DNA of 63,852 nucleotides, filler included, from Squatina squatina (taxonomy: Eukaryota): assembly GCA_031763465.1 (NCBI GenBank). It is 4 parts of 4 records of this genome, joined end to end, with 100 filler letters (N's around TTAATTAATTAA, not from the genome) between each part and the next. Parts side by side here need not be neighbours in the genome. Positions count along the whole stretch, not along the records: positions 13,702 to 35,933 come from JARFOE010000100.1; 3 more parts are not named here. One strand, written 5' to 3'. How positions within the stretch are numbered: the stretch's first letter is position 1; each line of letters opens with the position of its first letter. Under the pieces are notes generated by a model. That model had not been told where the DNA came from, made no database searches, and saw only the letters and a list, made by a program, of their open reading frames with translations. The position numbers and the translations under genes were made by a program. Below are positions 4,441 to 35,933 of this stretch, one piece after another.

Positions 4441-7378
4441 TTATCAGTGGTTCGATATAAGTTGTAAAGAGCACTGAAGCTGCTGCTAATGGCAAGTAGA
4501 GGCTTTCTTAGGGGCTCTCACATTATCAGTTTTTCAGCATCTTTATCACTTGTTTACTCCAACATAGATCTGACGTGATTGAATGGAACACATTGAATGT
4601 CTGTAACTGAATACATTCTGATACCCTTATTGGATAAAATTGGATGAGCAACAGCAGAGGCAATCTTTCTTAATATAATTATTGAATCTGTTGACTCGGC
4701 ACCAGAGACAACACATTATTTGTCTGCCATTGTCTGATTCTGTCTGTAACTGCAGTAATTCAGTAATTGCCTCTCTTTCAGCTGGGTTGAGTCCATCAAG
4801 CCACTGATGAAGACAAGAAACAGGGGAAGCCACATATTCATTTCAACAACTCAGCAGACACACCAGAATTGACCAGCTTCTCAATGAGATGGCAATGCCA
4901 GAAACTGCTGCGGACTCTGTAAAAGTTGATGTCGACAGGGCCAATCTAAGGTTAGCCTTGGCTCAGTTGATAATACTCTGGGCACGACTTGGGACAGGGA
5001 GAGGCAATATAGACTTAATGGCAGAGTTCTAAAGAGTGTGNNNNNNNNNNNNNNNNNNNNNNNNNNNNNNNNNNNNNNNNNNNNNNNNNNNNNNNNNNNN
5101 NNNNNNNNNNNNNNNNNNNNNNNNNNNNNNNNNNNNNNNNAAACTTAATTTAACTCTCCTAACTGAAGTTGGGAAAAATATACCCACCGCACCTCCCCCC
5201 CACCTCACTGCACTAGCGCCCCTGGCAACTCCCTCACCCGTATCCTCCCTCGAAGTCAGCTTTAGCTGGATGCAGTGCATATGATGTTTGCACCCTTCAA
5301 CCCAGGAACTGGCAGTCACTCCTCATCTTCACTATAGCTTTCCCTTCTTATATGTTTTTGCTATAGTTCTTTTTAATGGTTTTAGAAGAAGTGTGTGAAC
5401 AGTAACGCTGCCACCCGTAGAAAATGTCAGAATTAGTCAGTTTCACACATTTCCAGCTTGTGCATTAGGCCTGTTATGTTTATTTGCACTCCACAGAGGA
5501 TGTCTATATATTTGACTGATCAAATAGGCAAGGTTCAGGGATACCTTTTCTCTTCACTGTCCCCCCCACATCCAAGCAATGCCTGAGGTTTTAATTTGAC
5601 ACTTGAGTGAACACAGATGAACTCTGTATCAAGGCCTTTGAATAGCTGATCACAGAGAAAAGACAGACTTTGCTGTAACTGGATGTTCCACTACATTGTG
5701 CGTTGCTGCTCAATCATAGGGAACCTCTTATCTTAACTCCTACATTTGTGCCAGATTAGCAGAACTGTTAGCCTCGCTCAGATGGAACATAGGCTCAAAA
5801 TCCCACCAATTGGCCAAACTGATTGAAATAATAAAGGTAGGGAAAGAAAACATGATTGTTCTTGGAGTAGCAATGCTTGTAGTTTAAACCCTCGAACAAA
5901 GGTGACTTCAAGGTTTCAATATCTTCAGCCAATTTCATTTTGCTCTTTCAGTTTTTTTTATACCAGGATAACTGAAATGGACCACTAATTTCCAATGAAG
6001 CCATTCTGTTTCCAAAGGCAACAGCAAAGAGATCAGAGGACTAAAAATAAGATAACAGGGTAAACAAACTGGGGTAGTGCTAATCCAAGGATAGTCTCGC
6101 TCAGTGAGTTCTATATTTGCTGTTGGTGCTGTTTTTCAGTGAGTTTTGTATGTGTCAGCANNNNNNNNNNNNNNNNNNNNNNNNNNNNNNNNNNNNNNNN
6201 NNNNNNNNNNNNNNNNNNNNNNNNNNNNNNNNNNNNNNNNNNNNNNNNNNNNNNNNNNNNGTTTCTAACGTCTTCATGCTCCCTGATGTGACAGGCTGCT
6301 GCCCTGATTACAGCTCATTTGCTCATACTGGTCTCCAGGTACATGGTAACCTATATCACAAACGAGATTTTGTTACAACATGGGTGACATAGCCTGTCCA
6401 AAAATAGCAAGCCCACACAACATCCTATTTAATTATCCCAATCTCTGCATTCGGGCAATTTAAATAGATCGGGCTGGTCTATACAGTGAAATCTTATGCA
6501 AATGCTGCTGATGGCTTTCAAAACCCTCTTCAAGCTGATTCTGAAAACAAGGCTTCCATAATGAAAGAGGTGAATGGAATGTAATTTGTATTTTTAACGG
6601 CCCAGTAAAAGACCAAATAGCTATTATTTTCTAATGCTTGAATAGGCACTGCTGGTTTGTGACGCTTAGAAGTTAATGAATGGATACGTTTATACAATTA
6701 ATTTACTATACTGCTTTTATTTCATCTATTAAAGGGACTTCTAAATTTAGATAGTGATTAAATCCTCTGTGTAAAGGTTTGGAGAATGTGTTGCTGTGTT
6801 ATAGAGAAATGTATCATATTCTCACAGAGGGCTCCATTGCCATTTCTCCCCGGGGTGCATTCTGGGTGGGTTCATTATTGGGAGTTGTGTGTTGCCAAGA
6901 GCCACACTGGAGATGAGCCAAGCACTCATTTCACTTTGAGCCTTTACAGCCAGCAGGATAGCAACCCTCAGCCCTCAAGCCTGGTCTGGATTCAGGTTTT
7001 CGTGGTGAAAGCACAATGTCCTGAGTAATTGCATCCATCCATTCTTCTCCCTCCACAATTACATCAAGGTCACAGGCCTGTGATTTACAAAGAAAATAGA
7101 TTGAATTCTATCACTAGTTTAAAAAAAAAAGAATCCCAGGCAGGAAGACTGGAATTTGACTTATTCAGTCACTGAAAATCTAGTGACAGTAAGTATAACT
7201 ACAGTGCAGCACCATTAAGCAAGTAATGAGTCTGGACTTGATAAAAATGTGTCCATGTCAGGACTCTCTTAGGATTACNNNNNNNNNNNNNNNNNNNNNN
7301 NNNNNNNNNNNNNNNNNNNNNNNNNNNNNNNNNNNNNNNNNNNNNNNNNNNNNNNNNNNNNNNNNNNNNNNNNNNNNN

Positions 7379-13701: not shown

Positions 13702-13846
13702 CAGGAAGTGGTTGATGCACAGACCACTATCATTTAAAATTCGAAAAATATTTGAAACAGAGGAAAATCCCCTCCCAAAAGAGGGGGTAATGAAACATCT
13801 AGATAGCATGCTAAGAAAGTTTTTAAACAACAATGATTTCACTTAC

Positions 13847-13944
13847 ATCTGCCCAGCTGAAATCTTCCAGGTTAAGGAAATGCCAGTCATTTAGTGCCAA
13901 CTCTCTGACTGAGCGACCACCATAGATAAACAGATAGCTCTGAC
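13847..13944 (-). CDS. LCMT2: LCMT2/TYW4 internal exon (kelch-like region)
   Basis: AG acceptor and GTAAGT donor, 98 bp. Encodes (G)QSYLFIYGGRSVRELALNDWHFLNLEDFSWAD, matching recalled human LCMT2 YLFVYGGRSVVEPVLSDWHFL. Confidence 0.88.
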
Positions 13945-14754
13945 CTTTTAAAAAAATGTAATGATCACCAATTATACAGAAAACACGGCAGTTCCAAACA
14001 GTGTTCTTACCTGGTTTTCTGTCATATTCTTTCTAAAATAATATATTAAAAATAAAAATCGAATCTAGAAGCTATTTGGTAGCACCAGTAGTAAACTACT
14101 GAGCCCGCAGTCAGACTGAATCCTAACCCCAATTGACACTAAAACTAAATGATCTCCACTGGAGGTGACCTGGTCAATTTTTGATAGGATGCTAAATAGA
14201 GGACTTTACGGTCCACGTTTTCGATGGGATAAGAGAGATTAGCATGACTTGTGGAAGAGAGCCACACCATTAACGGAATATGAAATGATACTGACAGTAA
14301 CTCTGTTGAAAGTATTTTAAAATAAATAACAGAACAAAATGGTGATGAAATACAAATAGCCATCTCAGTTCATAGTATTTTCTGAGAAAACTAAAAACAA
14401 ATCTGAGTTTTTGGTGCTGCAATGTTTCTGAGAGTTTGGTTGAGTCTACTTCTGTAGCTCTGGAACTCTCATTAAACTTACACCTCCACTATAGAATCTG
14501 GAGCAGGGAGAAAATTTACATAACGTTAAGATTTTGCCCACGCATAGATACCACATGATCAATATGAAATTGTGATTACATTTCCTCAGTCAAAGCCAGT
14601 AATTTCTTTCCATTTTTGTTTTTCCATTTGTCAGTTAGCATTTATAATGCTAGAAATTGGGGGAAAAAAGCAGAAAATGATCTGAAACTCTTTCTTACCA
14701 TTTTGTCTTGTTCTGTAATTAATGGCCACTTTTATTTAATATAATTTTTTTCAC

Positions 14755-14887
14755 CTTTGTAAATCACTTCTGTTGCTGTGTGTCGCCAGCGTGACGATGG
14801 TGCAGTGCCACTGCATTCAATCTCCTTTACTGACAAGCTGATATTGGAGATGGCACCATCGTCTATGTCACATTTCAAACAAGGCAC
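14755..14887 (-). CDS. LCMT2: LCMT2/TYW4 internal exon, 5' boundary uncertain
   Basis: Encodes VPCLKCDIDDGAISNISLSVKEIECSGTAPSSRWRHTATEVIYK(G) with a phase-1 GT donor that fits the phase of the 13847-13944 exon. RWRH.ATEV is an LCMT2 motif. The upstream end runs into a SINE. Confidence 0.78.
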
Positions 14888-15012
14888 CTGCGACAGTGCA
14901 GCACTCCCTGCACTGAAGTGTCAGCCTGGATTATGTGTTGAAGACTCTGGAGTGGGACTGAAACCCTCGAATTTCTTACTCACAGGGATGAGTGCTGCAA
15001 TTGAGCCAAGGC
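14885..15012 (-). mobile_element. SINE 5' fragment abutting the LCMT2 exon
   Basis: GACAGTGCAGCACTCCCT...GTGTCAGCCT...GGAGTGGGACT matches positions 1349-1425 of the fuller copy. Confidence 0.8.
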
Positions 15013-16045: not shown

Positions 16046-16233
16046 ATCCAAACAATGAGGGACAGCTAAAAACCATCTGGTCCATCGAGCCTGTCCTACA
16101 CAATGGCGATAGCCTCTGTATCACAACATAAACAGGCCAACCCACTTGAAGAAAGATTTTAAAAAACCCAGGCCAATTCTGGAAAATTCCTCTCCGACCC
16201 ATCTAGGCAATCGAAACAAGTTCAGAAGATCAA

Positions 16234-16558
16234 CAGATGCGAAATACTGCGGAAGTTGGAATCTAGAATACAAACAAAAAATGCTGGAAAACTCAGCAGG
16301 TCAGCCTGAGAGAGAAAAACAGAGTTAACGTTTCGGGTCGATGACCCTTCCTCAGAACTAAAAAAAAGCCAGAAATACAGCAAGTTTTAAAGCACTGACA
16401 GGCAAAGGAGTGGGGGGTGGGCGAGGGAAGGACAAAGGGTAACATAATAGTGTGATTGTTTGGCAGGCAGAAGAGATTAAGAGATGATGCAAGGCAATCA
16501 GAGGTGGTAATGGCAACATAAGGAAGCACATTACATCTCGATAGGGTGTGAACAGGGG
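16234..16558 (-). mobile_element. Penelope-like element terminal-repeat fragment with 7-bp target-site duplication
   Basis: Flanked by the direct repeat AGATCAA (16227-16233 and 16559-16565). Carries a hammerhead motif. Same family at 16836-17076, about 27355-27425 and 49890-50065. Confidence 0.7.
16323..16359 (-). ncRNA. Minimal type I hammerhead ribozyme motif (Penelope-type)
   Basis: Minus strand AGTT-CTGAGGA-A-GGGTC-ATC-GACCC-GAAAC-GTT-AACT: stem I AGUU/AACU, CUGANGA box, stem II GGGUC/GACCC, GAAA box, loopless palindromic stem III (ACGU) and a GUU cleavage triplet. Confidence 0.8.
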
Positions 16559-16835
16559 AGATCAATGTTGTCCTGAATTCCCTGCAGTACCTACCTTCTA
16601 GAAGAGGTGATCTCCGCCCCAGCCAGAAACAGGTCCAGCTCCCGCTTGATGGAATTCAGTGAGTCCAGATCCACCAGACCAGACAGCAGCCTGTTCCAGA
16701 GGGCTGGGGGAAGAACAACTTCCTGACATCTAACCTAGATCTATACTTACACAACTAAATTTGTAACCCTTGGTCCTGCCTAACCTATTTAGTTTGAAAT
16801 AAACTGTCAGCTGGAAAACAACCAATTCTCTTCAA

Positions 16836-17076
16836 AAGCAAAATACTGCGGGTGCTGGAATCTAGAATGTAAACAAAAAATGCTGGAAAAGCTCAACAGG
16901 TCAAGCAGCTTCTGTGGAGAGAGAAACAGAGTGAACGTTTCAGGTCGTCTCGGTTCTGCTGAAGGGTCATCGACCCGAAACGGTAACTCTGTTTCTCTCT
17001 CCACAGATGCTGCCTGACCTGTTGAGTTTTACCAGCATTTATATCCTAGATTCCAGCATCCACAGTTTTTTGCTTT
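16836..17076. mobile_element. Inverted pair of Penelope-like terminal repeats (about 240-nt hairpin)
   Basis: Left arm 16836-16946 is the imperfect reverse complement of right arm 16971-17076. The right side carries a mutated hammerhead (CTGCTGA...GAAACGGT). Confidence 0.8.
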
Positions 17077-18202
17077 TGTACAAGAGACATCAGATTTGCC
17101 AGATTACATCGAAATGTGGAAAAATAGGCGATTATCATGCAATCGCTGGTCATTATGCTATTTGCAATGGCAGTGAATTGTCAGATATTACAGGTGACTA
17201 CAAATGTTCTATTTATGAAAAACAATTCTCAACTCAACAAGGTCTTGGTCAACACGAAAGACGTGTACATCCTGAACTACAAAAATATTAAGCTTTTATC
17301 GGCCAACTTGTTTGCTAAAAAGACCAGTAAAATATCTATTTGGTTTGACGGGGAAGCAGCTCTCCTTCCAGAACTTGAGAGCAAATATCGGAGCCAGTGG
17401 AATACTAACTTACAAAAAGTAATGAGCTGAATCAAAAACACACAGATTTCAGACAAGAGGAGGCTCTAAAAAGGAGGCTTTAAAGAAAAAAGCTCCATCA
17501 ACAGCTGGCAATACAACCAGGATAATTGCAGCCGCTGAACTTCCTCGCCAAGATCTGACTCCAAACCCATTGAAACAAAATTCATCCTAAAATGTTCCTT
17601 TATAGGAATATTTGACAACTGTGGTTAAAAAAAAATCAGCTGCTGAAGCAGGAAGAACTTTTCCATGATGCAGATAAGGCTAGACTATGGATCGGGCCAA
17701 GTTGAATCGATGACTGAATCCATGATTAATAAAAATTAAGTAATACTTCCTGTCGACACCTATAATTACACAAGGACTCAGACACTATATCATGAAGTTA
17801 GGAAATGTTTGGCGCATCAAATCATGTGTGCCCCCTGCAATATGAATTGTCCTTTCACTAAAGAGGAATTAGAGAGCAGTTTTGCTATTAAACTATCCAC
17901 TCTCAGTAATAAAGCAGACAGCAAACACTTTGCTGATTATTGTGGGTAACCAAACTGTGAAAATCTAATGAAGGTGACTAGTTAGTCTAGCTTTGTATGG
18001 AATGAAACAGGGTTGTGCAGCCAGCCCAGATGATACAAAAAGTTCCAATCTTAAAGATCTCTGTGATGAAAAAACACTAATCCCTGGAATATTCGCTCTT
18101 TGGCTTGGAACAGCCACTATTCCAGACTGTTTAAGGAGAAGCGGAACTGTTGTAATTCCAAAAATCGAATATGCTTCTCTTCTCGAGCAGGTTGACAATT
18201 AG
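17077..18202 (+). mobile_element. Degraded R2-clade non-LTR retrotransposon, N-terminal half
   Basis: Broken ORF with, in order: a CCHC-like finger (KCGKIGDYHAIAGHYAIC), a C2H2 finger (YKCSIYEKQFSTQQGLGQHERRVHP), a Myb-like start (IWFDGEAALL), a pre-RT block (YTRTQTLYHEVRKCLAHQI...CPFTKEELE) and RT regions 0-1 (MKQGCAASPDD...IFALWLGTATIPDCLRRSGTVVIPK...VDN*). Confidence 0.75.
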
Positions 18203-19945: not shown

Positions 19946-20388
19946 NNNNNNNNNNNNNNNNNNNNNNNNNNNNNNNNNNNNNNNNNNNNNNNNNNNNNNN
20001 NNNNNNNNNNNNNNNNNNNNNNNNNNNNNNNNNNNNNNNNNNNNNGGCGATGTTACGGAGGTGGAAGTAGGCGGCCTTAGTGATGGTGCCCATCTCGAGT
20101 AATGTGCATAAGCCCTCTGCTGGCTCCTGATCGATGGACCATACCAGGTGGTAGACTTAGACAGGTTGAGAGTGTCCCGGCCTTAGATTTCAGTTTCTCA
20201 GAAAAGCAGAGCATTCCTACTTGGACAAGATTTCTCCCATCACTGAAGTCCACATTTGAGTCCTTTCCAAACTATAATCCTGTTTAGCAAGAATGCCTGA
20301 TAGCATTTGCCCATTGTATCACTGTCAAAAGCCTCACCAAAGTCAGCAAGCATTTTCAATGAAGCATGTACTTGAAAAACAATCGTAC

Positions 20389-20578
20389 CCATTTGAGCTG
20401 GTCTCATTTCATCAATGCAGCCTATGAGCTCCACGAGTTCCTGCTTGTTTTTAATCAGAGTGGCTTTGCGCTGAACGACATCTGGAAAATCAACCTCATA
20501 CATAATCACATTTTTCAGTTCCCCACTTGCCTTTAGCCGAAAGTACAAGGAATCAAACCCAGCTCCAAGTGAGAGGAT
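20389..20578 (-). CDS. LCMT2: LCMT2/TYW4 exon (SAM-dependent methyltransferase motif I)
   Basis: CAG acceptor and GT donor, 190 bp. Encodes ILSLGAGFDSLYFRLKASGELKNVIMYEVDFPDVVQRKATLIKNKQELVELIG. GAGFDSLYFRL and EVDFPDV match LCMT2 rather than LCMT1. Confidence 0.9.
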
Positions 20579-21855
20579 CTGTAGAAATGGGAATACATAC
20601 CAAGCTCTGGTATTAAGCTTTAATGTACTGTACTCAGTGACTGTCAGAACACAAATGTTCAGATCAAGTNNNNNNNNNNNNNNNNNNNNNNNNNNNNNNN
20701 NNNNNNNNNNNNNNNNNNNNNNNNNNNNNNNNNNNNNNNNNNNNNNNNNNNNNNNNNNNNNNNNNNNNNCAGAACAACTGCCAAAATCAATGTGGCCATG
20801 GTGCCTTTAAGGAAACTGGTTGGTGACACGCCATCAAGTGATGTCATCAGGACTGCTTCCTTCAATTGGCTGGGAACCTCGCAGGGCGAGCTTAACACGC
20901 CCCATCAACGGAAGATCCTTCACACAGTGCGGGCATAAGCCAGGAGCGGGGTCACCACCCGCCACTGACCCCGGCTGCCACGGTTGGCGATATCGCAGCT
21001 ACAATGTCAGTGGCATCATCAGTGATGCTGATCAGATTGAAGTCAGCAAACATGGGAAATAGTAAAAAAATCTGGACAGAAATATCTCCATATAAATTGT
21101 ATTACGTTTACATTTGCTGCAGCAATAAATTTTCTGACTTGTGAAGCAGATTATTTCTGGCTGTTTGTGGAATATGATCTCTGTGATAGTGTTTCTTTAA
21201 TTCGAAGGAATCTCTGAACAAAGAATAACATTCTCACCTTGTAGCATGATTTACTTTGGTGAAGAAATGCCACTGCAATCTTTGAAACATTTAATTGTGT
21301 GGACACCCTGCTCGGTTCCTTGCTATAAAGGAACAATACCAGAAGTGTAATGCAGTACTGGAAATGACAAGCCCATTAATTGCTACTGTCTGTGGCATAA
21401 AAATCCTACCCTGTTAATCAGTCTTTTATACCTAATTGTAAGATGCATATGACAGTGGCTCCTGGGAAATGAGTTTCAATATAAAAGGCTGATTCACTAT
21501 GTTTGATAAATCCTAATGCACAGTTACAACAAGCCAGGCTGCTGATAGGTGAAGTATGAATTAAAAGAACAGTTGTCAAAAAATGGATCTGGAACAGGAA
21601 GTCAAACTTTCAGATGTGCTTTGTACATCAGCTTGATGTGTATTGGTGCTTACAGTGGGACTAATGTTGAGTAAAACAGTAAAAGTGCCAGGGGATGTGT
21701 TGGGGCAATGGACAGATAAAATGAATTGATTAATAAAAAAAGTCACGTGGAGCACNNNNNNNNNNNNNNNNNNNNNNNNNNNNNNNNNNNNNNNNNNNNN
21801 NNNNNNNNNNNNNNNNNNNNNNNNNNNNNNNNNNNNNNNNNNNNNNNNNNNNNNN

Positions 21856-22686: not shown

Positions 22687-24469
22687 NNNNNNNNNNNNNN
22701 NNNNNNNNNNNNNNNNNNNNNNNNNNNNNNNNNNNNNNNNNNNNNNNNNNNNNNNNNNNNNNNNNNNNNNNNNNNNNNNNNNNNNNAATGCTCCTTTTAA
22801 AAATTTATTTTAATGTCCACTAACTGCTTCAAATGAACTTACATTAACAGTAAAAATAAATGGTTATGTCTTTTTTTTGATTGATCATGGTTTAGATTTG
22901 ATGCAGACCATCTGGTAAGAGGGCAGTGTGAATTGTTCGGAAGCAGTCATTTAAGCTCAGTGTCGCTGCTACTGCTGCAGAAATAGACAAATCACATCTG
23001 CTAATACTCAACAAGTTTGTTAGATGTATTGACAAATTGTTTCCTACATGTCATATTTGAAAAGTACAGAATTAGAGATAATTGTATGTCAACCTATTAT
23101 GCACTAAGCTACTGCATTAAAATGTAGATAATGTACCTATCACCTCCCTTGTCAATTTAGAAAATTACTAGTTAAGACAGTGCAATTGGATTTCGATCTG
23201 ACCTGTCTCTCTAACATTGCCTTTGGCAGAGACTCTGATAAGCTGCTACTTTTACAAAAGCATACTGTGGGATATTTCTAGAAGTTTCCTTCACTGTTCT
23301 GATGTGCAGCTTAGGATACAAACTGCTGAATAGCCATAATAATCAGTGTATAATAACTCCTATATACCAAGCCTCCTGGAATTCTCTCCCAAAAGCACTT
23401 CACCCCACCACCTCCTCCCTTCCTTAAAAATTCTTCTCTGTGGCCTCCTTAAATTTTCCTTCTTCTGCCTTCCACCCAATCACTAACCTTACCCTTTGTT
23501 CTTCCCTCTTCCCCCACCCCCACCATTTCCCGTCCACCCATAAGTGCTTTAAAAATTNNNNNNNNNNNNNNNNNNNNNNNNNNNNNNNNNNNNNNNNNNN
23601 NNNNNNNNNNNNNNNNNNNNNNNNNNNNNNNNNNNNNNNNNNNNNNNNNNNNNNNNNCAGGATAATTTAGAAACTCTGGATGTGATGCTGTTTATTGGTT
23701 TACACGCATTGTTAAAATGAGTTACGTGATTTTCAATTGTTGCTGAGATTTGACTGTATATTGATCGCAGTGCTGAGTGCTTAGTGTACTTTAGGACAGT
23801 TTTGTTATACTTTAAATGGCCAATTGACAGTCATGTCTACAACTGTTTTATATCACGTGTGTACATAGTGAATGCATTGAATTTTAAACCTTGCCTTTAG
23901 AAAATGAAATGTGCAGCAATAAAAGCTAGATTAAACAGATGTCACCTTTCAGCATCTCAATCCCATTGATCTACCTTCAGCACACACTCTGTTGACCAAT
24001 TTTGTTACTATAGCAGCAGAGGTCAGATGAGTTGGGTGCATTGGTTTCCTTGGATACTGATTCTCGATATCTGCCAGTCATAGAAACTACTTGTTAGGAA
24101 GCAGCAAGAAATGGGATCCCAGGATGTCAACCCCTAACATGGATGTTGGAGCATGATGCTAATTAGTGTACACAATAAAGAAACTGCTTCTGTCGCTATC
24201 TGCCTGTCTCAAAATAGATACTTAACAATTGACAGAATATAAATTTTACTCCTTTTTTAATTTTAACAACAGTCATCAGTGCTTAGTTGCTTTGTGGAAT
24301 GGTGCCTAAGGGATGATGGAAACTGTTCCAGGTACAGATTTTGAAGAGGCATAAAGTAGCAAAAATGACTGCATACTGCCCTTTTGCTTTTTTTTTGTTG
24401 ATTCTGTACAATATAGGACATTTAAAAATGAATGTCAACAAGCATGTAGTTTTTTTTAAATTAACGGAC

Positions 24470-24927: not shown

Positions 24928-26271
24928 NNNNNNNNNNNNNNNNNNNNNNNNNNNNNNNNNNNNNNNNNNNNNNNNNNNNNNNNNNNNNNNNNNNNNNNNN
25001 NNNNNNNNNNNNNNNNNNNNNNNNNNNGTGATCGTATTGAATGGCGGAGCAGGCTCGCGGGGCAGATTGGCCTACTCCTGCTCCTATTTCTTATGTTCTA
25101 CCGTGAAGACAGATACAAAATATTTGTTCAAAGTCTATTCCATTTCCTCGTTTCCCATTATTATTTCAGTTCCCACAACAGCAGGAAAATTTGCCCTGTG
25201 TAACAGTGCGTCTGAGCATCCGATATGCCTATCTGTATCCGACTCTCGCATCGTAGATCCAGAACATGGGGTTGTGAATCTGTAGTGATCCATCCGCATA
25301 AGTTTTTTGGGCATCATTGAACTGTGCTGATGTTTCTTCCTCTTCTGATAGTCAGGGAGGCCTCTTTGTCTTTTTCTGTCACCTTAGCTCCCTGAGCTGT
25401 GGAAGCTGGTTGAGTTTTGCCAGCACTCATCCAGGTCAAGCCATGGTAATCCGTCCGCATTGATTTTGACTGTTAATTTCTGCAGCCACTGATACCAGCC
25501 GATCGGGTGGTTGGCCCGATACGGTGGGTGTGTTTAGGATCCCAAAACCTGTTGTGCTGACGAGAACCGTTATATAATCAGCCTTTTAGGCCTTTTCCAT
25601 CGACTGTTTTATTAGCACTTTGTTTAATTCACCTTGGAATATTCAAGTTTGTGGTAAGTACAATAAAGATAGCATTATTGTCAAAAACATGACAAGCATC
25701 AAAATAACCTTCTGTCAATGGTGTCTGAGCAGTAATGTTAAAAGGGATAGAACGATTCACATTTGGGTGTTAATCCTGCATGTCTCCAGCTGAATTCTAG
25801 GATGTAATCTGATAACAACAAAGCTGGTTTGTGATCATCTAAGTAGCGTTGTTGTTATTGATTGCAGCTGTGGTTTGTTATGATGGGCTTTAATTGTGAT
25901 GTAATCAATACTAATTTAGTTTTAAAAAGCCACATCCATCTGGGGCACTTAGGAAAAAATGTAATGGTTCAAATTACATGCATCATGGATACAGTGTGTG
26001 CATGTAATAATGCCTTGCTGCCAAAAGTCAATCATTAATGAAGATTTTTGATGCACAAAATGAAACCCGATGAGACCATTANNNNNNNNNNNNNNNNNNN
26101 NNNNNNNNNNNNNNNNNNNNNNNNNNNNNNNNNNNNNNNNNNNNNNNNNNNNNNNNNNNNNNNNNNNNNNNNNNNNNNNNNACAACTCCATTTCTACCCA
26201 TTACAAAAGGTCTATCAAGATGTAAATGTTCTCCACTGGTAAAATAAATCAAAGTTTTTAATCTTGCACAG

Positions 26272-26510
26272 GAAATCAAGGTGGATCAGTAGCGATGGCC
26301 CTATTAAAGGATGGCACATTCAAGGTGAGAGCTATTACAAGGAATCCAAGAAAAAAAGAAGTTAAAGAACTGAAATATCTTGGAGCTGAGATAGTGAAAG
26401 CTGATCTGGACAATGAGAAGAGCCTGTTTGATGCATTGAAAGAAGTGTATGGAGTCTTCTTAGTCACAGACTACTGGGAGTATATGGACAAAGATAGAGA
26501 AATACAGCAG
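26272..26510 (+). CDS. NmrA-like family (NMRAL1/NMRAL2-type) exon with Rossmann-fold start
   Basis: CAG acceptor and GTATGA donor, 239 bp, open frame: (G)NQGGSVAMALLKDGTFKVRAITRNPRKK...GVFLVTDYWEYMDKDREIQQ. Collinear with recalled NMRAL1 [29 protein letters not shown]. Paralogue identity unresolved. Confidence 0.9.
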
Positions 26511-29500
26511 GTATGAAGGAAATGATGTACAGAACAGTTTTCCTAAGCACCAGTCTGGTTTAGAACTGTGCCCTCACAGCATGTTGTATATATGTTTTGC
26601 CCACAGTCAATAATAGAGACAGCTGTAAAACATAAAAACCTGTTGCAATTAAGGGACTGAAATCCTGCTCCTGTTTGCTGATGACACAGAGGGAGCAAAA
26701 CAAACAGGATCAGTCCCAGTGCGCCCCATTTGTGCTTGTCCTCGGTTTTCCGTTGGGACTGTGTCGGAGGCATCGGGTGTTTGTGCTGCTCCATGGCACA
26801 AGTCTCATTGCAACATTCACTGGGGTTGGTGAGAATTGTGATGCGTTGTGCCCTTGGAGCCAGGCCAGTGCATTTCACCCTTAGAAGATGGAGCAAAGGA
26901 CTCTCCTGCAGGCAACCTGAAGTGCCTTTAAGACTGACCTTTTCATGAGATTCGTCTTTTTTTTCTGTTTTTGTTTTCTTGGCATCGCACCACTACTTGC
27001 CTCTTTGGATTAGGTGTTAATTGGTTCCCTTTTATTTGATTTTACCTTTACTGTTGCATCCTACCATTCAAAATAGTCGGCTTGACATAGGTTACCCTGC
27101 CTGCCCTCTAGACATCTGAGCACTAAACAGGAAATGCCCAATTTCAAACTTTGCCGTGAGCGGGGCTTGCAGGTGCTATTTTATGAAGCTGCACCATATT
27201 TTTGTGCTCCTGCCCAGGAAATCCAGACCTTTGTGTTCCCACTGCATGATGCAGATTTCACTGGGAGCATGTCATCTGCACTTATATTAGGGGACAGACT
27301 AGCTCTGAAGAAGAGTCCATACCCGAATTGGCTGTTCTCGCCTCGGGGCTTCTCTGGCCTGCTGAGTGTTTCCAGAATCTTCTGTTTTTGTTTCAGATTT
27401 CCAGCATCCACAGTATCTTGCTTCTTGTTCAGGAAATTTGGGGAATTGCCCTCAGTACACATTAGTGCAAAATGTGCCAATGCACCTGGGGTGGAATTTC
27501 AGCCCCTGAATCATCACATTATGCTCTACACACGCAAGACTTGCAACACTTCTGGTGACTTCAGAAAGACATGCTTCCACCTAAAGTGGGATAGGAGGAT
27601 GTGACAGTTCATGACAAGATGCTATTTTCCCCTCCCCCAAATTTTTTTGTCTTATTTGCTCCCCTAATTTATACTCACTGGCCCACGTACAGATGTCTGG
27701 CCGTGAGGTAAATGATCTGCTCCCAGGACTCTGCAATGCACCTTCTGAGATGAACGTGTGTGAAAGGAACCAGGAGAGACTCTCCCATTTATCATTCCAA
27801 CCTAGAGTTACAAAATGTTACAGCTCAGAAGCAGAGCCTTTGGCCCATCATGTCTGTGCTGGTCTTTTTCTCTACATGAGCCACCTAGTCCATTCTTACT
27901 CTCCTTGCTCCCAAAACCCTTTCAATATTCCTCTTTTATAAACAACTACCTAATTTCCATCTAAAAGAATTTATGAACTCAACAACGATTTGTGGCAGAG
28001 AATTCCACATTTCAGCTACCTTCTGTGTAAAGAAATGTGCAGAAATGCCTATCTTCCCCCACTGACATGGCTGAAATCAGGAAATTAGAGTGTGCGGCTA
28101 CCATTTGGTGGCACAGTGTTTTATAACCAGCATTGTGCCACCATGTCACCTTCATAATGCGTTTTTAAGTTAAAGGTGACGTGGACTTGGTGGTCAAAGA
28201 TTCTACCAGCTTGTGTTTTTGTAGTTTTCTGCCTAGTACTTGGGATTTGCAGAAATCTAAACCAAGTTTTGTCAGTTGTATTGGGTTGGGGTCTGTTATC
28301 CTATAAAACACAANNNNNNNNNNNNNNNNNNNNNNNNNNNNNNNNNNNNNNNNNNNNNNNNNNNNNNNNNNNNNNNNNNNNNNNNNNNNNNNNNNNNNNN
28401 NNNNNNNNNNNNNTGAGGTAGAAGATCAGCCGTGGTCTTGTAGAATGGCAGAGCAGGCTCAAGGGGCCGAATGGCCGACTCCTACTCCTATTTCTTATGT
28501 TCTTATTTGTTCACGCTAATCATCCCCTCTACACCCACTCATTCCAGTCTCTGGCTGGTGACTATAAACAAACTGTAGTTTGGTTAGATTGCTGCCGCTG
28601 ATAAAGGATAAATCAAACGTAGTGCTGTGAGAGGCACGTTTAATAATGCACAGATTACATTCTCTGTATCCACAAACTCTGAACAGTTGCTGCTGCTGAC
28701 TGACTTCTCTTTTCATTTTATCTGTAATTATCTGGGTTCTCATGACCAGGGATTCACTGAGTTACAGTATTTCCAATCTGTAATCTCAGGGTGAGAGGAA
28801 GAATTTGAGAATTTTTTTTTTCCTTCCCAAAAAAAACCATAAAACAAAATGACTACCAAGTGAAGGTTACAACTACAAAGGTCTTTGAAATAGTACATGA
28901 TCCTGATTATCGTGAGAAAGATGGCACACTCTGAGCACACTAATTCTTCAACATCTGCTTTTGTTAGATCTATGCATTCCNNNNNNNNNNGTGAGAACAA
29001 TTCCCAGATCTTTCATCAGCGAGGGCAGCAGTGCGTGTAGGACAATCAGTTTCAGGACCCTTGGGCTAAGGAGGAAAAAATCAGTCGAGTTTGGGTTCCT
29101 GATTGCTATCCATGACCTCGATGGTAGAAGTGCATGTGTGTGGACATCCATTGGGGACATGACTGGTTTTGGCTGTGATGGTCTCCGTGGATGGATAACC
29201 TGCTGACTCTCGCTCTCTAGGCTCACACATGAACAAACAATCATTTAAGTGAGGTAGCAGAGGGTAGCCAGCACCCATGGAACTATCCTAGCAAGAGGTT
29301 ACCCCCACCAGGAGCAGGGAGAATCNNNNNNNNNNCTTTGAGGGGAAAAGTAAGTTCCCAGGTCTGAGTATGTTGTTTCTTTATTCAGTATGAAAGTTCC
29401 TGAGGATAGCTAGTCAGGTTCAAATAATTCAAGCTGCAGTGCAGCAAATACAAAACACAATTAAACTATCAACACATTTCACTGATCTGTCTAACAGTTA

Positions 29501-32280: not shown

Positions 32281-32502
32281 TCAATATGCAAAGCCCTCTG
32301 GATACTGGAGATTGTTGCAGTGATCCATTTCCAGTAAGTAGGCCGCATTGTCATCGAAATGCGTGAGGGGGACAGTATCCTCTTTGTTAATATGACAGTC
32401 GATTTCAGTCTTCAGGAAGGGGCGTTGATTGTCTGGGAAGGCCATAGAGAAAAGTGCCTCAGGGTCACACACAAACTTGTACACATACCGTTCTCCTGCA
32501 AC
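32281..32502 (-). CDS. ETV5: ETV5 last coding exon
   Basis: VAGERYVYKFVCDPEALFSMAFPDNQRPFLK...LTHF...YLLEMDHC...EGFAY*. The GFAY ending and QRPFLK are ETV5-like rather than ETV1 or ETV4. TAG acceptor present. Confidence 0.9.
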   Translation of the reverse strand, partial: VAGERYVYKFVCDPEALFSMAFPDNQRPFLKTEIDCHINKEDTVPLTHFDDNAAYLLEMDHCNNLQYPEGFAY

Positions 32503-33083
32503 CTAAAGTGCAAAAAAAAAATTAGGGTTATGCCTGTTAATCAACTATAATATTTCAGACTAGAGAATTGATTTTAAAAGTTATTACATGTTAAAATAAA
32601 ATGCTCAAGGGTTAAACCTCAATGAAAGTTTTAAACCAATTAACCAAAAGACATGACACAGTAATAGGGTATGCGATGGGCACAATTTACATAAACGTGA
32701 CTGTAAATCAGTGTTTGAACGCATGTCATTTTGAAAGACTGACTACAACTCAACATTCATACTTAAAACAAAAACAGAATTCCATTTTAACATAGTAAAN
32801 NNNNNNNNNGGATATTTAGGGCTGCGCTGATAGTAAGTGAGCAGACTTCACACACAAGCTGCCACTTTAAGTGAGGCTGTCACAGGGCGATAGGCGCCAA
32901 TGCTACAGAGGCCACTATCAATGAGCCCTTTAATTTTTTTGGGGGTGTGCCACCCCTTTAAACGGGCTTCAAATTCCCATGCATGTGCGTTTTTCCCCCC
33001 ATATAACAGTGTGTGCAGCCTGCGTGGGAGCTCCAGATGCAGCTTAATGGGAGCATTGGCCACTTTTTAAAAAAATCTTCCAC

Positions 33084-33185
33084 CTTTTGCATGATCCCCT
33101 TTTCATAGTAATAGCGAAGCGAGCGGCTCAATTTGTCGTAGTTCATCGCGGGGCGGTTCTTCTGGATGCCCCAGCGCCGAGCAAC
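33084..33185 (-). CDS. ETV5: ETV5 ETS-domain exon
   Basis: 102 bp, AG/GT, phase 0-0: [34 protein letters not shown]. Confidence 0.93.
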
Positions 33186-35167
33186 CTGCAGCAAAAACAG
33201 GAGAGAAGGGGAAAAAAAAAATTATATTTGTAGATATGGACACAGCATAAATGAACTCTCAAATGGATGCAAAGATAAAATGACCATAGACTGTGTTTGT
33301 GCGCTATTGATCTATATCCCATTAGTGTGCATTTCAGTAAATGCAAGAGTCTGAATATAGAAATCAATAGAAGGTAATAGCAAGGCCCATAGGTCATCAC
33401 TGTAACCGTAGCAGTGCAACAGCCGCTTGCTAATGGGACTGTTGATGTGGCAAGCATGATTTTAATGAGATTTTGGAAAGTGCTTAGTCTTTATTGGCTA
33501 TTTTGTGTTTTAAAAAAAGGGTGAAAATGACAGTACTTCTGCTCCCAAGGACACCCACTCCAGTACTTTAACACAAATACTGGAAACTGCAATATGAATT
33601 GTAGAACATGATTGAACAAAGACAAAAGAACATAATGTTCGTTCAAAAAAAAAAATCAGAATAATAAATGTTCTCTAAATCCAAGCAGGCTCATGTGTCT
33701 TGTGGTCTTCCTAAAATTAGCTCACTGGCCATCAAGTGTTGCAACTTAATGTGCCCTTCAAATCCCTTGGAGGTCTCCAAGCAATCAGATGAATAAGGTG
33801 CATGTACCAAGCATTCGTCATAAATGGATGCAACCACCAAGTCTAGTTCCAATACGGCATGCTTCACGTCTAGCTCATGGTTCTTATAATTAGGGCTAAA
33901 GATTAGCTTGCGCTTGGCAAATAATGAGTTGTATTATCACCTTGACCACTGACACACAAATCAGAGAAGGAAGCTTTCGATTCAAATCTAATTTGATTCG
34001 GTTGGCCAGTAATTAAAGATTTTCTATTTCATGCATTTTCAAAGCCACAAGCAGACGTCTTAGGTCTGTAAAGTTGCTGTGATTTCAGTCATGATCTGTT
34101 GAAACATGCATCACTCAGACATGCATAAAGCTCATTTCAAGAGCACGACACATTCATTTAATNNNNNNNNNNNNNNNNNNNNNNNNNNNNNNNNNNNNNN
34201 NNNNNNNNNNNNNNNNNNNNNNNNNNNNNNNNNNNNNNNNNNNNNNNNNNNNNNNNNNNNNNAAATATTGGCCCTGACACTGTGATCTCCCCAGGTGGGA
34301 ACAATGTTCCTACGCACCCGGGGAGACATCGCAAAAGCCGGTTACGGGGCTGTACATTATAAGCCCGCATAACCGGCATTTGTGATCTGTCCAGAAACTT
34401 CTGGACAGATCCAACACGGAGGCTGCGAGGCCCATCCCCAGCACAGAGCTTTGCGATATTTTTGCATAGCTTTCTGCTGGGGATCTCTTCAAATTTTTTT
34501 ATGCATGATAAAACCGAGCGAATGTTTTACCATCTGCTTGGTTTTACTGCAGATCGCCATTCACTGCTTCCTATAGGTGATGGTATTTTTAGGCCTAAGC
34601 CGATTAGAAGATTTCAGTTACATCATAGAGCATCAAATTAGTAACATCCTTGAAGTAGCAGTAGTGCAAACTACATAAAACAGTGTGATCCATTAAATAT
34701 CAAAGTCTCGGTATAGGCTCTTGTTATTGTTTAAATAAATATAAAAAAGGATCTGCCACCTAACACAAGCAGGAACATTTCCATTTAAAATTAATACCAG
34801 AAAGGAATTATTCCAAAAGCTGGGTTTTGAGAGTTTCCCCTTCCCCTACGAGGCAAGATTGAGCAAAATGAAAAGGTCACTTTATAGAATGTGCTCAGCT
34901 ACATCTGTCAAGCAACCTCCATAAATTAAGTGTGAAATGCCAACCAAGGCCTATCGCTGCAGTAACAAATCTCTCAGCTTCCTGATGTCAAAAGATAATA
35001 AAAGTGATGCAGAATACTCATGGGCAGGAAGAGGGCCCAGGTTCATTCCTGCAAACCATCAACAACCCATCATTTGACAGTTAGGAGAGACTGCATTTTA
35101 CACCTACTAAAATAATGGATCAATGCGATCTGTGGACCTCAGCAGCAGTCCCGAGTAGAGAACCAAC

Positions 35168-35415
35168 CTGAGTCATAACAGTAGTCTCTTGGCTCCTGCT
35201 TAATCCCAAGGGGGGGCTGGAAATTTTGTCTGCTGGGACCGACGCCTGTAGCGACGTGATCATAACGAGAGTCGTGGTACTCCTGCTTGTAGCCCTGAGG
35301 AGACGGCGAAGGCATCGGTTCTGACATCTGCCTCTGGTAAACTTGCCGACTGTCGCTGGGGACTCCTGACTGGGGTGGGTACGGGTGGCATGGTTCAGAC
35401 ATCTGCCTCTGAAAC
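35168..35415 (-). CDS. ETV5: ETV5 central exon
   Basis: 248 bp, AG/GT: [15 protein letters not shown]...YQRQMSEP...GYKQEYHD...[13 protein letters not shown], with the PEA3-family KQE motifs. Exons between this and the 33084-33185 exon are not visible and are probably lost in the gap. Confidence 0.9.
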
Positions 35416-35933
35416 CTTAATGATAAAACAAGAAGTCAAATATTTATTTTGGGTCTTGGTAATACTGAGGCACTTAACTAAGTAACTGCAGTGGCATTTG
35501 CGAACAGTGGGGAAATGTCACATGATCAAATGTCATGTGATTAACCTTCATGAGCGGTGTCACACGATCAAATCTCCAGGTCAAACCAGAGTTGGAAAAC
35601 CTACCTCAGAGTAAAAGTTGCTCCCCTACCTTCTGTATTTTGAGACATCAGGGAGCAGCATTTTTGCACAAGCGATTGAATGGTGAAACATAGGTACTTT
35701 TGAAGCTGAAGATGAGGCAATGAAGGGTGGGGCTTGTAGTTTGTTTCTGTGGGAGGCATAGGGCAAAGAGAGACAGAGTAAGATGGGGAAAGCGGCAAAA
35801 AGAAAAAAAATATATAAATCCTGCTGTATAACCTATGAATCTGTTAGCTAGCAAAAAAAGCGACTGGACTGTGTGTGTTTAAGTAAAGAGAAAGCTGGGT
35901 GGCAAATCCCCATGTAAGATGGGGCGACTGGAG

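What the first reader, a model, noticed from the sequence alone, without database searches (positions are those of the whole stretch)
16323..16359. Intact minimal hammerhead ribozyme in a Penelope-type insertion with a target-site duplication
Seen on the minus strand: AGUU CUGAGGA A GGGUC AUC GACCC GAAAC GUU AACU, with all core nucleotides and perfect stems I and II. Stem III has no loop and is palindromic (ACGU), so it would probably fold only as a dimer. The carrier element is bounded by AGATCAA direct repeats, which suggests a clean insertion. Known: Penelope-like elements carry such minimal hammerheads in their terminal repeats. It lies in the sense orientation of LCMT2, between its exons as scaffolded, so it could be present in pre-mRNA (inference).
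Basis: partly seen in the sequence, partly recalled or inferred. Interest (0 to 1): 0.7.

Follow-up and report, generated by a model that had tools for sequence, protein, structure and literature searches.

The report
Shark Penelope-end hammerhead in LCMT2 intron
A 325-base scrap of a Penelope-like jumping gene landed in an intron of the LCMT2 gene of a shark or ray and still carries an intact miniature hammerhead ribozyme motif; it is one of over a thousand such copies, is likely idle, and is an ordinary example of a known kind.

Summary
The motif is real: a minimal type-I hammerhead at 16359-16323 (minus strand) with a full core, 5-bp stem II, 4-bp stem I and a loopless ACGU stem III. It sits in a 325-bp 5'-truncated end (pLTR plus tail) of a Penelope-like retrotransposon whose longer copies encode reverse transcriptase and GIY-YIG endonuclease. 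The AGATCAA duplication is genuine: 17 of 19 paralogous host-repeat sites are uninterrupted. It lies sense in an LCMT2 intron of a cartilaginous fish. Nothing singles this copy out. The genome holds 1,195 exact intact-core copies. Across 54 related copies the core decays like its flanks, and catalytic G8 and G12 are changed in about a quarter. No same-strand partner was found in the sequenced bases nearby, and stem I is predicted not to form in context. It is most likely an idle passenger. The class was described in 2014, and this scan has noted it in at least 14 other genomes. A side result: short tailless stubs that start at the ribozyme's edge carry 8-15 bp duplications (4 of 4). Cleavage and expression were not tested.

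The parts
16323..16359 (-). Minimal type-I hammerhead motif (stem I 4 bp, CUGAGGA, bulged A, stem II 5 bp with 3-nt loop, GAAA, loopless ACGU stem III, U17). G at position 7 is rare in the family: C 43, T 11 of 54 copies.
16234..16558 (-). 5'-truncated 3' end of a Penelope-like element (solo pLTR with tail), 325 bp; best paralogue 90% identical
16234..16268 (-). Optional ~33-nt tail; family 3' ends fall in two groups, at this end and 27-37 nt short of it (boundary approximate)
16227..16233 (+). Target-site duplication, left copy (AGATCAA; the junction base may be element-derived, so 6-7 bp)
16559..16565 (+). Target-site duplication, right copy
16149..16760 (.). Older unnamed dispersed repeat into which the element inserted (extent approximate; limits are those of the queries used)
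16299..16311 (-). Copy-specific net 7-nt loss downstream of the ribozyme; the new junction is predicted to pair with the CUGAG core
16833..17079 (.). Separate head-to-head inverted pair of the same family; plus-strand core broken (A6 changed, palindrome lost), minus-strand arm truncated inside stem II
20381..20581 (-). LCMT2/TYW4 exon, about aa 100-166, upstream of the element across a scaffold gap
14747..14896 (-). LCMT2 exon, about aa 460-509, first exon downstream of the element, same contig
13841..13948 (-). LCMT2 exon, about aa 504-541

Best explanation
This is the cut-short 3' end of a Penelope-like retrotransposon that inserted into an older repeat in an LCMT2 intron, and its intact minimal hammerhead is likely an idle passenger. 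Shown: the fragment matches the repeated end (pLTR) of a longer element encoding RT and GIY-YIG endonuclease, it ends at the family's tailed 3' end, and it is flanked by a true duplication. Inferred: the element's endonuclease nicked the target, reverse transcription began at the tail end and stopped after 325 nt, and repair duplicated 6-7 bp. The copy spans the scissile bond, so its template RNA was uncut or re-joined at this site. In the parent element the two same-strand pLTR hammerheads about 3.2 kb apart would pair through their ACGU palindromes and swap stem I strands, probably helped by the element's protein. This solo copy has no such partner and stayed intact by chance, helped by loss of the CpG at positions 7-8.
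For: Family of 5'-truncated copies with shared 3' ends. Upstream sequence encodes a Zn-linker plus GIY-YIG C-terminus, 58% identical to a zebra shark protein and 41% to an 889-aa RT/GIY-YIG protein. L145 is pLTR-ORF-partial pLTR. Host repeat uninterrupted at 17 of 19 paralogous sites. 1,195 exact copies against 0 control. Core non-CpG change 20/486 against flank 437/6858, equal medians 0.037, p=0.27; G8 changed in 14/54 and G12 in 13/54. No second same-strand core with a stem II in the known bases of 49 kb; P(stem I) about 0 in every context longer than the bare motif. Literature: monomer min-HHR inactive and dimers weak (PMC4209133); protein-assisted and dispensable in vitro (PMC11167929).
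Against: This copy is one of only 3 of 55 that are fully intact; it was, however, picked for being intact. Pooled core substitution is somewhat lower than flank (4.1% vs 6.4%), though not significant per site. About 20 kb of the 49 kb fetched is N and most LCMT2 introns are unassembled, so a partner cannot be excluded. Folding is nearest-neighbour only, and other intact copies also fold poorly. No complete two-hammerhead copy was seen: the 3' pLTR of L145 stops before the motif.
Confidence: 0.9

Rival explanations
1. The copy cuts LCMT2 pre-mRNA at a low rate by dimerising in trans with other element RNAs or with an unassembled intronic copy, with little or no effect on mature mRNA.
For: Core, stems and palindrome all intact; sense orientation; more than a thousand intact potential partners in the genome; GUU is listed as a cleavable NUH site (PMC3138052, passage).
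Against: Stem I and core are predicted to be sequestered. The swapped dimer (-13.7 kcal/mol) scores no better than two monomers (-15.6) in the energy model. In Anolis no RNA-seq reads ended at the cleavage site (PMC11167929). The nearest sense half-copy lacks CUGANGA and lies in a long hairpin.
Confidence: 0.07
2. The ribozyme has been domesticated as a regulator of LCMT2, like conserved intronic hammerheads of amniotes.
For: Intact in a family where most copies are broken; the CpG at 7-8 is lost, which protects G8.
Against: The copy is 5.2% diverged from the family column majority against a median of 6.1%, so it is not unusually preserved. It has no stem III loop and no tertiary-contact elements. 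It is nested in another repeat.
Confidence: 0.02
3. The motif or the duplication is a chance match or an assembly artefact.
For: No Rfam hammerhead match; folding z about 0; 7-bp matches arise in 20 of 992 shuffled flank pairs.
Against: 1 of 300 shuffles gives the motif; 2,122 genomic matches against 23 control; empty paralogous sites join the two flanks directly; no gap within 2.4 kb of the element.
Confidence: 0.01

Closest known systems
Minimal hammerheads (min-HHR) of metazoan Penelope-like elements (Cervera and De la Pena 2014, PMC4209133; Results, Discussion and start of Methods read)
   Same: Type I, short helix I (4-5 bp), unpaired nucleotide between 9 and 10.1, G10.1-C11.1, palindromic 15.2-16.2, located in pLTRs, mostly found as single motifs of truncated elements.
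   Different: Stem II is 5 bp here (7-8 bp in their Schistosoma families). Cartilaginous fishes are not named in the text read; supplementary figures were not seen.
Poseidon element of Anolis (Frangieh et al. 2024, PMC11167929; main text read)
   Same: Two 3' ends about 30-40 nt apart (tail), hammerhead upstream of the tail, insertions made from uncleaved RNA.
   Different: There the ORF starts inside the ribozyme; here the likely start lies about 45 nt beyond the tail end. This family has the CX4CxxC linker that Penelope/Poseidon lack.
Neptune/Nematis clades of endonuclease-positive PLEs (Craig et al. 2021, PMC8557442; passages)
   Same: C-terminal GIY-YIG with CCHH, Zn-finger linker CX2-5CxxC, pLTR, inverted 5'-truncated copies.
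   Different: No tree was built, so Neptune versus Nematis is not decided; Neptune is the recalled fish clade.
Non-LTR retrozymes (bioRxiv 10.64898/2026.07.22.740005; first fifth and passages)
   Same: PLE-derived type I hammerheads, reported in one chondrichthyan genome; about 43% of Xenopus copies overlap introns.
   Different: Retrozymes are tandem arrays; this is a solo, dispersed fragment.

Membership tests
min-HHR | CUGANGA, GAAA and UH core in type-I order | tested here: met
min-HHR | Unpaired nucleotide between A9 and G10.1; G10.1-C11.1 pair | tested here: met
   family 53/54, 51/54 and 46/54
min-HHR | No loop 3, palindromic 15.1-16.1 | tested here: met
   ACGU
min-HHR | Compensatory changes in stems | tested here: inconclusive
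   Only a one-sided U-G/U-A switch at 1.1 (31 G, 19 A of 54); the 100 listed of 2,122 matches are essentially one family
min-HHR | Self-cleavage as a dimer | not testable with these tools
   Energy model does not favour the dimer but ignores core tertiary contacts
Hammerhead families of Rfam 15 | Match to a covariance model | tested here: not met
   No hammerhead among 11 matches at E<=10
EN+ Penelope-like element | Single ORF with RT and C-terminal GIY-YIG | tested here: met
   In longer copies, in pieces; homologue P0122 has RVT_1 above cut-off and GIY-YIG just below; the 290-aa L060 ORF itself gave no Pfam match
EN+ Penelope-like element | pLTR direct repeats around the ORF, hammerhead in the pLTR | tested here: met
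   L145: window element matches at 1944-2295 and 5134-5273 of the turned locus; second repeat is partial
EN+ Penelope-like element | Optional 30-40 bp tail | tested here: met
   14 of 32 ends at -27 to -37, 16 of 32 at -3 to +8, 2 elsewhere
EN+ Penelope-like element | Inverted 5'-truncated copies; optional short TSD | tested here: met
   TSD of 7 bp or more in 6 of 32 against 20 of 992 null; 8-10 bp TSDs in PMC3846280
Neptune clade | CX2-5CxxC linker and CCHH | tested here: met
   shared with Nematis
Neptune clade | RT phylogeny | not tested
   no named reference set at hand
Non-LTR retrozyme | Two or more tandem units each with a hammerhead | tested here: not met
   single intact motif in the window

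The most novel reading that the evidence does not exclude
The more than a thousand intact copies, this one included, act as dispersed half-ribozymes: sense intronic copies pair in trans with element transcripts through ACGU, chaperoned by the element's protein, and cut host pre-mRNAs such as LCMT2 whenever the family is expressed.
Probability: 0.03. Interest if true: 0.7.

Novelty: new member of a known kind. Interest (0 to 1): 0.12.

Why it matters
As it stands it adds one cartilaginous-fish example to a class described in 2014. What the hammerheads of Penelope-like elements do is still open (PMC8557442, passage), but a solo decaying copy is a poor place to test it. The family statistics are more useful: two fixed 3' ends, many 5' ends at the ribozyme's 5' edge, and clean duplications on the shortest stubs bear on how these elements integrate.

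Tried and rejected
Rfam scan: no hammerhead, only hairpin-type miRNA matches on the inverted pair, all below gathering score. Sequencing runs: none was listed, so no reads were laid; this is no evidence on expression. Pfam on the 290-aa ORF: nothing. Covariation within the genome: not informative, one family dominates. Dimer energetics: not informative. First TSD count on tailed copies alone (2 of 17) understated the rate and was redone with both end types. The ATG after the CACAG in the tail region was considered as the ORF start and rejected: in L145 that frame closes after about 42 codons. Lünse et al. (RNA Biol, dimer cleavage) is not held; seen only as a citation in PMC6765202. Paper searches for 'Penelope-like, shark, Neptune' (0 papers) and 'hammerhead ribozyme, shark, Penelope' (1 review, shark only as a shape) found no shark-specific report; the library lacks most subscription papers, and supplements of PMC4209133 and the bioRxiv preprint were not seen and may list cartilaginous fishes.

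Full report
Observation. The minus strand at 16359-16323 carries the stated motif with all core bases, a bulged A after A9, a 5-bp stem II, a 4-bp stem I and the loopless palindrome ACGU. The predicted cut after U17 lies between 16327 and 16326. A descriptor finds this one site in the window and 1 of 300 shuffles gives a hit. Rfam has no hammerhead match here and the bare motif folds no better than shuffles.

Carrier. A search of the own genome with 16234-16558 gave 4,441 candidates, 40 scored, paralogues 84-90% identical. The 29 paralogues fetched share the 3' part and mostly extend further 5' than the window copy, to variable points. Upstream sequence encodes a CX4CxxC linker and GIY-YIG/CCHH domain. 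A 290-aa open piece is 58% identical to a zebra shark protein and 41% to an 889-aa protein with RT and GIY-YIG. One locus, L145, shows the window element upstream of an ORF matching aa 24-846 of that protein in frameshifted pieces, and again, partially, 3.2 kb downstream. The fragment is therefore the repeated end (pLTR) of an endonuclease-positive Penelope-like element of Neptune/Nematis type. Among 32 of 86 copies with both flanks readable, 3' ends fall at the window's end (16) or 27-37 nt short of it (14), with 2 elsewhere. This is the optional tail described in PMC8557442 and PMC11167929. The window copy has the tail.

Duplication. The element sits inside another repeat. In 17 of 19 paralogous sites the left flank runs straight into the right flank over one AGATCA; one locus ends 18 bases later and one diverges. 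Most paralogues have C next, while both window copies have A (1 of 19 paralogues does), so the duplication followed the host copy's divergence. Duplications of 7 bp or more occur in 6 of 32 copies against 20 of 992 shuffled pairs. TSDs of 8-10 bp, and insertions without any, are described for PLEs (PMC3846280, passages).

Host gene. The exon at 20581-20381 matches TYW4/LCMT2 of rays and sharks at 88-96%. Exons for about aa 460-509 and 504-541 lie at 14896-14747 and 13948-13841 on the same gap-free contig as the element, with consensus splice sites. Exons for aa 167-455 are not in 14900-35933; one lies on a separate small contig. The element is thus in a sense intron about 1.3 kb before an acceptor, but much of the gene is unassembled.

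Is this copy special? The exact 28-base core plus stem II occurs 1,195 times (control 0), a looser pattern 2,122 times (control 23). In 54 of 57 loci chosen by whole-element similarity (3 dropped for not covering the motif), non-CpG core sites changed in 20 of 486 cells and flanks in 437 of 6,858; per-site medians are equal (0.037; p=0.27). G8 and G12 lie in CpGs and are changed in 14 and 13 of 54. Core intact: 23 of 55; core plus palindrome: 14; fully intact: 3, including this one. The window copy is 5.2% from the column majority, median 6.1%. This is neutral decay, and the copy's rarity is explained by how it was picked. Its G7 removes one CpG.

Can it cut? Published min-HHRs were inactive as monomers and weak as dimers (PMC4209133); the Anolis one needed protein, was not needed for insertion, and left no read ends at the site (PMC11167929). 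In 49 kb around the site, of which about 20 kb is N, no second sense core with a stem II was found; the sense arm of the inverted pair 600 nt upstream has only the 3' half. Predicted P(stem I) is about 0.5-0.7 for the bare motif and about 0 in five longer contexts; forcing the fold costs 7.7 kcal/mol, against 3.4-8.6 in seven other intact copies. These are model results only. Because the insertion spans the scissile bond, its template was uncut or re-joined there (inference).

Comparison and verdict. It works like, and meets every testable feature of, the metazoan PLE min-HHR; it is not a tandem retrozyme. The scan's notes hold 88 findings with these words in at least 14 genomes and none in this genome; these are unchecked notes and are not counted as support. 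One of them prompted a tally of 5' ends: 10 of 16 pattern-selected copies with a clean 5' flank start within 10 nt of C3 (30 examined, selection biased toward motif-bearing copies), and all 4 tailless stubs of about 100 nt with both flanks readable have 8-15 bp duplications, against 2 of the other 28. Verdict: real, ordinary, likely idle; interest 0.12.

Noticed in passing
L090-L119 (e.g. L100, L101, L109, L116): Short stubs start at the ribozyme's 5' edge (10 of 16 within 10 nt of C3). The four tailless ones with both flanks readable all have 8-15 bp duplications, against 2 of 28 other copies. The sample was chosen by the ribozyme pattern, so it is biased.
   Followed up: partly
window 16833-17079: Head-to-head inverted pair of the same family, tails at both outer ends, junction at the ribozyme; both cores broken.
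   Followed up: partly
window 16558; L145 (turned locus, 1944); L010; L003: Several copies share nearly the same 5' boundary, at the T-tract/C-run where the window copy starts; possibly a preferred truncation point.
   Followed up: no
P0121 C-terminus (zebra shark protein): The read-through tail ends in residues compatible with a hammerhead core at the same place in the element, with a stem II region one base shorter; inferred from protein only.
   Followed up: no
family sequence just 3' of the ribozyme (altered in the window copy at 16299-16311): Pyrimidine tract plus CAG followed by ATG looks like a splice acceptor and short upstream ORF; the window copy has lost it.
   Followed up: partly
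window 49898-50064, 23461-23557, 27355-27434: Further decayed fragments of the same or a related family; the one at 49933 has a broken core.
   Followed up: no
window 26262-26513 (+): Exon of an NmrA-like protein (Pfam NmrA, E 1e-18).
   Followed up: partly
window 32284-35435 (-): Exons of an ETS-domain gene (Pfam Ets at 32961-33221); ETV4/ETV5-like by recall.
   Followed up: partly
window 19946-20045 gap: The 100-N gap must hide several LCMT2 exons (aa 167-455); one is on contig C1015941, and an aa 600-647 exon is on C716619.
   Followed up: partly
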